A DNA stretch of 64,000 nucleotides. Origin: Eledone cirrhosa. Its lineage: Eukaryota. The position numbers and the translations under genes were made by a program. The notes beneath the pieces were generated by a model, which ran no database searches, was not told the DNA's origin, and saw only the letters and a program-made list of their open reading frames with translations. How positions within the stretch are numbered: the first letter of the stretch is position 1; the number at the start of each line of letters is the position of its first letter. The DNA is taken from contig OZ024740.1 of assembly GCA_964016885.1 (NCBI GenBank), positions 215,450,001-215,514,000 on the forward strand. Direction: 5' to 3'. Shown here one piece after another: positions 57,194 to 57,900 of the stretch.

Positions 57194-57327
57194 TACTATC
57201 TATCGGTCGCAACTCCAGGTAGAAGGAGCAACGTGAAATAAAGTGTCTTGCTCAAGGAATCGAACTCACAACCTTACGATTGCGAATCCAATTCTCTAAC
57301 CACTCAACTCAGCCACACGCCTTCACA
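57194..57327 (-). mobile_element. tRNA-derived SINE, family 2
   Basis: Minus-strand head GAAGGCGTGTGGCTGAG..GTGGTTAGAG..GAGTTCGATTCC (A/B-box-like) followed by TTGAGCAAGACAC. Confidence 0.8.
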
Positions 57328-57832
57328 TATATATATATATATATATATATATATATATATATATATATATATATATATATATATATATATATATTATATA
57401 TATATAATATATATATATATATATATATATATATTATATATATATATATATATATATATATATATATATATATATATATATATATATATATATATTATAT
57501 ATATATATATATATATATATATATATATATATATATATATATATATATATATATATATATATATATATATATATATAATATATATATATATAATATATAT
57601 ATATATATATAATATATATATATAATATATATATATATATTATATATATATATATTATATATATATATATATATTATATATATATATTATATATATATAT
57701 ATATATATTATATATATATATATATATATATATATATATATATATATATATATATATATATATATATATATATATATATATATATAATATATATATATAT
57801 TATATATATATATTATATATATATATATATAT
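57327..57832. repeat. About 500-bp interrupted (TA)n tract
   Basis: Direct reading. Confidence 0.97.
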
Positions 57833-57900
57833 GTGAAGGCGTGTGGCTGAGTGGTTAGAGAATTGGATTCGCAATCGTAAGGTTATATTATATATATATA

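What the first reader, a model, noticed from the sequence alone, without database searches (positions are those of the whole stretch)
57269..57900. SINE head copied in inverted form across a 500-bp (TA)n directly at a Naiad 3' end (case 2)
Seen: 57832-57883 (tgtgaaggcgtgtggctgagtggttagag...cgtaaggtt) is the reverse complement of SINE head 57271-57327 apart from a 5-bp indel. A short TA and the PLE 3' terminus at 57901 follow. The geometry matches case 1 with unrelated sequence, and the indel argues for a real, aged event.
Basis: partly seen in the sequence, partly recalled or inferred. Interest (0 to 1): 0.7.

Follow-up and report, generated by a model that had tools for sequence, protein, structure and literature searches.

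The report
Mirror copy across a TA repeat
A 52-base piece of a short jumping gene sits as a mirror image on the far side of a 506-base TA repeat, and such mirror copies recur at about 1 in 100 TA repeats in this animal genome; they are likely copying slips of DNA folding back on itself, not a mark left by the neighbouring retrotransposon.

Summary
Sequence alone cannot prove local copying. The copy equals the family majority (2103 exact 32-mers genome-wide), and the 5-bp duplication is private to the left SINE. Population data do support it: 8 of 34 TA-followed truncated heads have a parent SINE head-to-head across a simple-repeat spacer, and one pair shares a variant found nowhere else. The process is not tied to PLE 3' ends. 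SINE tails (5 of 37) and single-copy DNA are mirrored too, as are 10 of 713 random TA arrays (1.7 expected). None of 29 sister PLE ends shows the geometry, and this PLE looks older than the SINE. The PLE is Hydra-type (C-terminal endonuclease), not Naiad. Best reading: fold-back or template switch inside the TA array, returning to TA by microhomology (0.5). Rivals: twin priming at SINE insertion (0.2), PLE insertion (0.15). The scan noted this class before on other DNA of this genome (e1-9505535).

The parts
56961..57178 (.). TA-rich array at the 3' side of the SINE, followed by a T-run 57178-57188 (an A-run on the SINE strand)
57187..57326 (-). Parent SINE, family positions 1 to about 159 of 216: tRNA-like A and B boxes (box consensus recalled), private 5-bp duplication after position 15, 24-bp deletion after position 63, 3' end cut short at an A-run; 0 substitutions in 135 columns
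   Evidence: ARAGORN finds no tRNA gene
57327..57832 (.). 506-bp (TA)n spacer, self-complementary; 12 of 713 random arrays are this long
57833..57884 (+). Inverted copy of SINE positions 1-52, identical to the family majority, lacking the parent's duplication
57885..57900 (.). 16-bp TA-like linker, the inferred return point into TA
57901..59866 (-). 5'-truncated, broken Hydra-type PLE: thumb-like region, CxCx5C linker and C-terminal GIY-YIG (ORF 59232-59720), about 1.3 kb AT-rich 3' region; 3' end at 57901; 3289 first-look candidates in the genome; 5' edge approximate
59867..60034 (+). Separate short repeat (about 165 bp; 3512 first-look candidates), joined to the PLE's truncated 5' side and ending in TA at 60035

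Best explanation
The 52-bp piece is an inverted copy of the adjacent SINE head, likely made on DNA when a growing or broken 3' end inside the self-complementary TA array folded back, copied backwards through the TA and 52 bases of the SINE, and then likely re-annealed to TA on the other side by one to two bases of microhomology. Shown: the geometry, its recurrence at SINE heads, SINE tails and single-copy DNA, and shared private variants at sister loci. Inferred: the fold-back, the return by microhomology, and that the PLE at 57901 was already there and only supplied the TA tract into which the young SINE had inserted. Not determined: whether the 3' end came from replication slippage, a cruciform break, or a nick by a TA-cutting PLE endonuclease. 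The parent's 5-bp duplication would then have arisen after the copying.
For: Random survey of 100 x 10 kb: 10 of 713 TA arrays have mirrored flanks at score >=12 (1.72 expected from shuffled pairs), 8 at >=14 (1.59 expected). Mirrored single-copy DNA: the L099 flank has no genomic match other than its own mirror and simple repeats, which an RNA template does not explain. SINE tails are mirrored as well as heads: 5 of 37 loci, with the non-SINE linker mirrored in L194, L207 and L214. Shared private variants: the L082 pattern occurs exactly twice in the genome, in parent and mirror; L209 is a 107-bp mirror identical to its parent although both are 93-94% like the reference. Interruptions inside the spacer are mirrored in L085, L082 and L229. 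Spacers of head mirrors are long (median 210 bp, n 9, vs 44.5 bp for 26 other 5' arrays, p 0.002). Many head breakpoints fall at AT dinucleotides of the SINE (positions 36, 43, 63, 79, 86; read by eye, no test). In L175 the mirror is followed by TA and non-repeat flank, with no PLE. L169 (head, TA, inverted body) reads as a DNA-level inversion anchored in TA. Known analogues: four-point template switch creating inverted repeats (10.1101/038380, passages) and fold-back inverted duplications at yeast breaks (PMC11724301, abstract).
Against: At this locus the copy lacks the parent's private 5-bp duplication, so the duplication must post-date the copy in a SINE with no substitutions; L076 (1 substitution) and L173 (31-bp deletion) also have parent changes missing from the copy. 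Heads are mirrored about 3 times as often as tails under matched patterns (9 of 4768 vs 5 of 7941; my arithmetic), which longer 5' arrays (median 63 vs 27 bp) may explain only in part. Five loci show classic twin priming of this SINE, so an RNA route exists. Longer spacers are partly expected by construction. Spacer interruptions are not mirrored in L062, L076 and L175. Of the 10 random-survey hits, L180 looks like chance and L147 and L152 are ambiguous. Shared variants could also come from later homogenisation of the two arms.
Confidence: 0.5

Rival explanations
1. Twin priming at SINE insertion: the TA end of the target next to the PLE primed a second cDNA on the SINE RNA at position 52. Both cDNAs ran to the RNA 5' end and were joined through TA. 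The variant of this is cDNA snap-back. The PLE is a bystander.
For: Five loci have an inverted head directly against a complementary body (head end/body start 46/47, 36/41, 79/89, 63/44, 36/36; L051, L057, L071, L072, L174), and three more have TA between (L041, L170, L086). This is the small deletion or duplication signature described for twin priming (PMC11702581, passages). It explains why the copy lacks the parent's duplication, and it fits the head-over-tail excess. A PLE enzyme nicks and extends both strands and starts internally on RNA (PMC11167929, passages); snap-back after full-length cDNA is seen with R2 proteins (PMC11371274, passages).
Against: The clear twin-primed loci have 0-15 bp between head and body, whereas full-overlap cases have 14-506 bp of TA. 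It cannot explain tails, single-copy flanks or mirrored linkers. Snap-back on the cDNA would copy the duplication if that arose in first-strand synthesis.
Confidence: 0.2
2. One reading: the PLE endonuclease nicked the TA array beside an existing SINE; the 3' end folded back, copied the SINE head, then jumped onto the PLE RNA and primed reverse transcription.
For: The PLE 3' end faces the copy across only 16 bp. Repeat termini follow mirror copies more often than they flank random arrays (17 of 28 vs 494 of 1454). Case 1, L119 and a second mirror in L175 are followed by ends of a hammerhead-motif family (cluster 11). L028 has a 74-bp inverted copy starting 34 bp behind the same PLE 3' end, although without TA between the arms.
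Against: 0 of 29 sister 3' ends show the geometry. The PLE is more diverged than the SINE here (p 0.013, or 0.14 on unshared differences) and in L050 (15/339 vs 3/214, p 0.04). 11 of 28 mirrors have no recurrent terminus behind them, and some are followed by SINE 5' ends. The enrichment falls to p 0.05 without selected cases and p 0.24 in the random sample alone (4 of 7).
Confidence: 0.15
3. Independent insertion of a second SINE of the same TA-targeting family in the opposite direction, later cut to 52 bp.
For: The copy is identical to the family majority and not to the parent. The family prefers TA (TA or another simple repeat just upstream in 10 of 10 loci). 4 of 34 truncated heads have no partner.
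Against: 8 of 34 truncated heads have a head-to-head parent across a simple spacer against about 0.3-0.7 expected. No remainder of a second SINE lies beyond the PLE.
Confidence: 0.08
4. Sequencing or assembly artefact from reads folding back in the long TA hairpin.
For: Long TA arrays are hard to sequence (own knowledge). The array has an odd doublet pattern. No public contig listed bridges the junction.
Against: An artefact should reproduce the parent, including its duplication. Sister mirrors differ from their parents by substitutions (L126 2 of 38, L005 5 of 195).
Confidence: 0.05

Closest known systems
Four-point short template switch, types 1-4-3-2 / 3-2-1-4 (10.1101/038380; passages read; lead from scan note e1-9505535)
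   Same: A reverse-complement copy of nearby DNA followed by a return to the original template creates a new inverted repeat; the inversion-only type matches L169.
   Different: Here both switch points lie in or rejoin a (TA)n array and the loop can be hundreds of bases; the word 'microsatellite' does not occur in that paper's main text.
Fold-back templated inverted duplications at double-strand breaks in yeast (PMC11724301; abstract and section list only)
   Same: Short inverted copy of the break-adjacent sequence, primed by fold-back and captured by end joining.
   Different: Those are mostly 5-34 bp at an induced break; here arms are 13-205 bp at natural TA arrays and are inherited. No break is shown here.
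Twin priming of L1 (model as described in PMC11702581; passages read)
   Same: Inverted 5' part with microhomology at the outer junction; five to eight copies of this SINE show the complementary head/body split.
   Different: At the focal locus the head is duplicated, not split off, and 506 bp of TA separate the arms.
cDNA snap-back 5' junctions in R2-protein insertion (PMC11371274; passages read)
   Same: A 3' end primes synthesis on its own strand before the junction is closed, often after full-length cDNA.
   Different: Engineered R2 system at rDNA, no TA spacer; it would not mirror SINE tails or unique flank in the way seen here.
Hydra-clade Penelope-like elements (PMC8557442; section 11 and passages read)
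   Same: The neighbour has a C-terminal GIY-YIG, a CxCx5C linker, no CCHH, and sits in (TA)n.
   Different: The inverted structures described for PLEs are copies of the element itself at its 5' side, not of the target flank; no phylogeny was built here.

Membership tests
Naiad PLE | GIY-YIG endonuclease N-terminal to the reverse transcriptase | tested here: not met
   The ORF stops about 55 residues after the YIG motif and is followed by non-coding 3' DNA. A thumb-like region lies upstream. The close relative in L097 has a YRDD motif upstream of thumb, linker and endonuclease.
Naiad PLE | CCHH motif inside the GIY-YIG core and CX2-5CxxC finger | tested here: not met
   One cysteine between VY and YIG; the linker is CxCx5C.
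Hydra PLE | C-terminal GIY-YIG without CCHH, CxCX5C linker | tested here: met
   against the definition in PMC8557442 section 11.
Hydra PLE | Insertion into (TA)n | tested here: met
   The 3' end abuts TA or a TA-starting simple repeat in nearly all of 30 copies (L013 is an exception).
Hydra PLE | Canonical hammerhead ribozyme | tested here: inconclusive
   No Rfam hammerhead hit in 43000-61000; my motif search of the last 400 bp printed no hit. The copy is 5'-truncated.
Hydra PLE | RT motifs (RWK, DKT) and placement in the RT tree | not tested
   The window copy lacks the RT core; no tree was built.
Template-switch / fold-back inverted duplication | Copy is the reverse complement of adjacent DNA on the same molecule | tested here: inconclusive
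   Met for the class; at this locus the copy cannot be told from the family majority and lacks the parent's duplication.
Template-switch / fold-back inverted duplication | Ancestral allele without the copy explains the change in one event | not testable with these tools
   No relative genome is held; public contigs break at the repeats.
Twin-primed 5' inversion | Inverted 5' part and 3' body are complementary, with a small deletion or duplication | tested here: not met
   At the focal locus all 52 bp are duplicated and 506 bp of TA intervene; the feature is met at L051, L057, L071, L072, L174.
Twin-primed 5' inversion | Target-site duplication around the whole insertion | not testable with these tools
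   Both flanks are TA repeats, so a duplication cannot be read.

The most novel reading that the evidence does not exclude
The Hydra-type Penelope enzyme is the engine of the whole class. It nicks (TA)n on both strands, and the freed TA ends either fold back and mirror the flank or prime internally on whatever RNA the enzyme carries, including this tRNA-type SINE. The SINE would then be a passenger of Penelope machinery, and TA arrays would be enzyme-driven palindrome factories. Not excluded: the SINE targets TA at both ends, shows twin priming at internal AT sites, no LINE partner for its 3' end turned up in the loci held, and repeat termini are modestly enriched behind mirrors.
Probability: 0.17. 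Interest if true: 0.62.

Novelty: new variant of a known kind. Interest (0 to 1): 0.3.

Why it matters
The single locus is an ordinary member of a class. The class is of some interest. About 1 in 100 TA arrays carries a mirrored flank, and 713 arrays per Mb were counted, so extrapolation gives on the order of 20,000 such small palindromes in this genome. That is a TA-anchored mutational process, and annotation would misread its products as truncated repeat insertions. It also gives natural material to separate DNA fold-back from RNA twin priming, and to test whether TA-cutting Penelope enzymes drive it. My searches listed no paper that, by title or abstract start, describes TA-anchored mirrored flanks at PLE or SINE ends. 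That is a limited, open-access library, and supplements were not read.

Tried and rejected
Private-variant proof at the focal locus failed: the shared 32-mer has 2103 exact copies. The 29 best sister PLE 3' ends gave no case of the geometry; most of the palindromes seen there look like head-to-head ends of other repeat families (read by eye). A first survey script was swamped by degenerate TA and was replaced. Rfam on 43000-61000 gave only below-threshold hits, mostly microRNA families on simple repeats; Pfam did not recognise the endonuclease piece; ARAGORN found no tRNA. Dating mirrors by parent-body divergence was rejected, because body variants may come from source elements and the search pattern selects unmutated heads. 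A LINE partner for the SINE 3' end was not found in the loci held. L219, fetched as a possible extra case, is two independent SINEs. Rows left out: 103 of 203 rows were not listed, so the wide head search covers C1 to most of C4 only; 1 of 38 tail places (C18) was not fetched; redundant loci were collapsed to one per place.

Full report
Observation. The feature is in the sequence. Self-BLAST of the masked window pairs 57270-57326 with 57884-57833 (57 columns, one 5-bp gap, E 2e-15). The order on the + strand is: TA array, SINE on the - strand (57187-57326), 506 bp of TA (57327-57832), SINE head on the + strand (57833-57884), 16 bp of TA-like linker, and the 3' end of a Penelope-like element (PLE) at 57901. 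The window lies at G000:C1:215450001-215514000 in a 3.0-Gb genome with no relatives held.

The SINE. It is a 216-bp family with tRNA-like A and B boxes (box consensus recalled). A 32-mer of its head has 2103 exact copies, a head 22-mer 4768 and a tail 22-mer 7941. TA or another simple repeat lies just upstream in 10 of 10 loci. The right copy equals the majority of ten copies at all 52 columns. The left SINE has 0 substitutions in 135 columns, but carries a 5-bp duplication, a 24-bp deletion and a shortened 3' end. The duplication occurs once in the genome.

The neighbour. Its ORF piece (59232-59720) has a CxCx5C linker, a GIY-YIG-like core with no CCHH, and a stop followed by non-coding DNA. 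A close relative in L097 has an RT YRDD motif upstream of the thumb-like region and endonuclease. This fits the Hydra clade as defined in PMC8557442 section 11 and fails the Naiad definition (N-terminal endonuclease). No tree was built. 59867-60034 is a separate short repeat. The window PLE differs from the majority of its relatives at 41 of 1694 columns, 19 of them shared by no relative. Against 0 of 187 for SINE plus copy this gives p 0.013, or 0.14 on the 19 alone: modest evidence that the PLE came first. None of the 29 other best-matching 3' ends of this PLE has a mirror copy across TA; L028 has a 74-bp inverted copy 34 bp behind the end with non-TA DNA between the arms.

Is local copying real? 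I searched the genome for SINE heads followed within 60 bp by TA (100 of 203 rows listed, 24 loci) and with a tighter pattern (all 24 rows, 10 new loci). Of 34 loci:
- 8 have a parent SINE head-to-head across a simple-repeat spacer: the window, L050, L062, L073, L076, L082, L085, L175.
- 3 have it with an interrupted spacer: L171, L173, L177.
- 5 have an inverted head directly against a complementary body, 3 the same with TA between, 1 a head followed by an inverted body, 1 an inverted head at the 3' side.
- 5 have a direct head duplication, 1 has two heads only.
- 4 have no partner, and 3 are not simple truncations.
Eight of 34 against a 2% chance rate has P 3e-7. In L082 the variant pattern shared by parent and mirror occurs exactly twice in the genome, at those two places.

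Is it tied to PLE ends or SINE heads? No. The mirrored search for short SINE tails gave 38 places; of 37 examined, 5 have a tail-to-tail mirror across a TA-rich spacer, three of them including non-SINE linker bases, and L226 is a possible sixth. In 100 evenly spaced 10-kb stretches, 10 of 713 TA arrays have mirrored flanks at score >=12 (1.72 expected from 21,083 shuffled pairs) and 8 at >=14 (1.59 expected); three of the ten are doubtful. One mirrored flank (L099) is single-copy. Behind the mirror, 17 of 28 cases have a recurrent repeat terminus against 494 of 1454 random flanks (p 0.0045). Without the two window cases and two target-selected cases it is 13 of 24 (p 0.05), and in the random sample 4 of 7 (p 0.24). 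The neighbours include PLE-like ends, SINE 5' ends and non-repeat DNA. Insertions next door may therefore cause a minority of mirrors, but they are not required.

Mechanism. TA is its own reverse complement, so a 3' end inside the array can fold back at any phase, copy the array and the flank, and rejoin TA when its end reads A or T. This predicts what is seen: TA after nearly all mirrors, breakpoints often at AT, heads, tails and unique DNA all mirrored, long spacers (median 210 vs 44.5 bp, p 0.002), and mirrored interruptions in some spacers (L082, L085, L229). The fold-back and return are inferred, not shown, and the source of the 3' end is open. Against this at the focal locus stands the missing duplication, which must then be later. 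Twin priming on the SINE RNA explains that detail, demonstrably happens to this SINE, and fits a roughly threefold excess of head over tail mirrors (9 of 4768 vs 5 of 7941; my arithmetic). But clear twin-primed copies have 0-15 bp between the parts, not hundreds. My odds: DNA fold-back 0.5, twin priming or snap-back at SINE insertion 0.2, PLE insertion 0.15, independent SINE 0.08, artefact 0.05.

Comparison with what is known. It works like the four-point template switch (10.1101/038380, passages) and like fold-back duplications at yeast breaks (PMC11724301, abstract). Membership needs an ancestral allele, which I could not get. Twin priming is taken from passages of PMC11702581, snap-back from passages of PMC11371274, and two-strand extension and internal initiation by a PLE from passages of PMC11167929. 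Passages of 10.64898/2026.07.22.740005 propose retrozymes as non-autonomous PLE passengers and name SINEs only as the LINE analogy. Passages of PMC13282606 added nothing on this structure; that the host is an octopod is my recollection-based guess, not a result. Searches listed no paper on TA-anchored mirrored flanks by title or abstract start; supplements, which hold the Hydra alignments, were not read. The scan had noted TA-anchored fold-backs (e1-9505535) and head-to-head PLE ends (e1-9524978, e1-9567229) elsewhere in this genome; I saw these after forming my reading.

Verdict. A real, ordinary member of a recurrent class of small TA-anchored inverted duplications: a new variant of known template-switch or fold-back mutation. 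The link to a 'Naiad 3' end' is mislabelled and probably incidental. Interest 0.3.

Noticed in passing
window 46378-46417 / 46516-46555: Case 1: perfect 40-bp mirror of a repeat end across (AT)49; a variant form is seen in 2 of 20 family matches, consistent with the two arms; followed by TA and the end of a hammerhead-motif family.
   Followed up: partly
L051, L057, L071, L072, L174 (also L041, L086, L170): Classic twin-primed SINE copies with complementary head and body; shows internal second priming on a 216-nt SINE RNA in TA targets.
   Followed up: yes
L079, L080, L083, L087, L172: Direct duplication of the SINE head in front of a longer or full copy, mostly across TA, ending at the same positions as mirror copies.
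   Followed up: partly
L175 around 1450-2110: Nested events: a 17-bp mirror of non-repeat flank next to a hammerhead-family end, with a SINE and its own mirrored head lying between the arms.
   Followed up: partly
window 57577-57708: Within the TA array four AA doublets spaced 15, 19, 13 are followed by TT doublets spaced 15, 19, 13 in the same order; a simple fold-back would reverse the order. Coincidence or consensus error is possible.
   Followed up: no
L014, L020, L021, L022, L032, L040: Inverted copies of this PLE family end repeatedly 162-167 bp short of the main 3' end, a second fixed terminus.
   Followed up: no
window 28947-39661: Large inverted repeat, arms 86-96% alike, of a LINE-like element with a reverse transcriptase hit (PF00078, E 5e-18 at 31365-32228).
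   Followed up: no
window 1-23408: 23.4-kb satellite with a 45-bp period built of GTT-type triplets.
   Followed up: no
window 48969-49529, 46680-46947, 49987-50221, 48728-48837: Palindromic elements next to TA, probably head-to-head ends of short repeat families.
   Followed up: no
window 52764-53760: A second broken Hydra-type PLE fragment with CxCx5C linker on the + strand.
   Followed up: partly
L098 6251-6420; L062 and L076 behind the mirror: Several short templated snippets repeated between TA runs behind the mirror, suggesting repeated rounds of priming.
   Followed up: no
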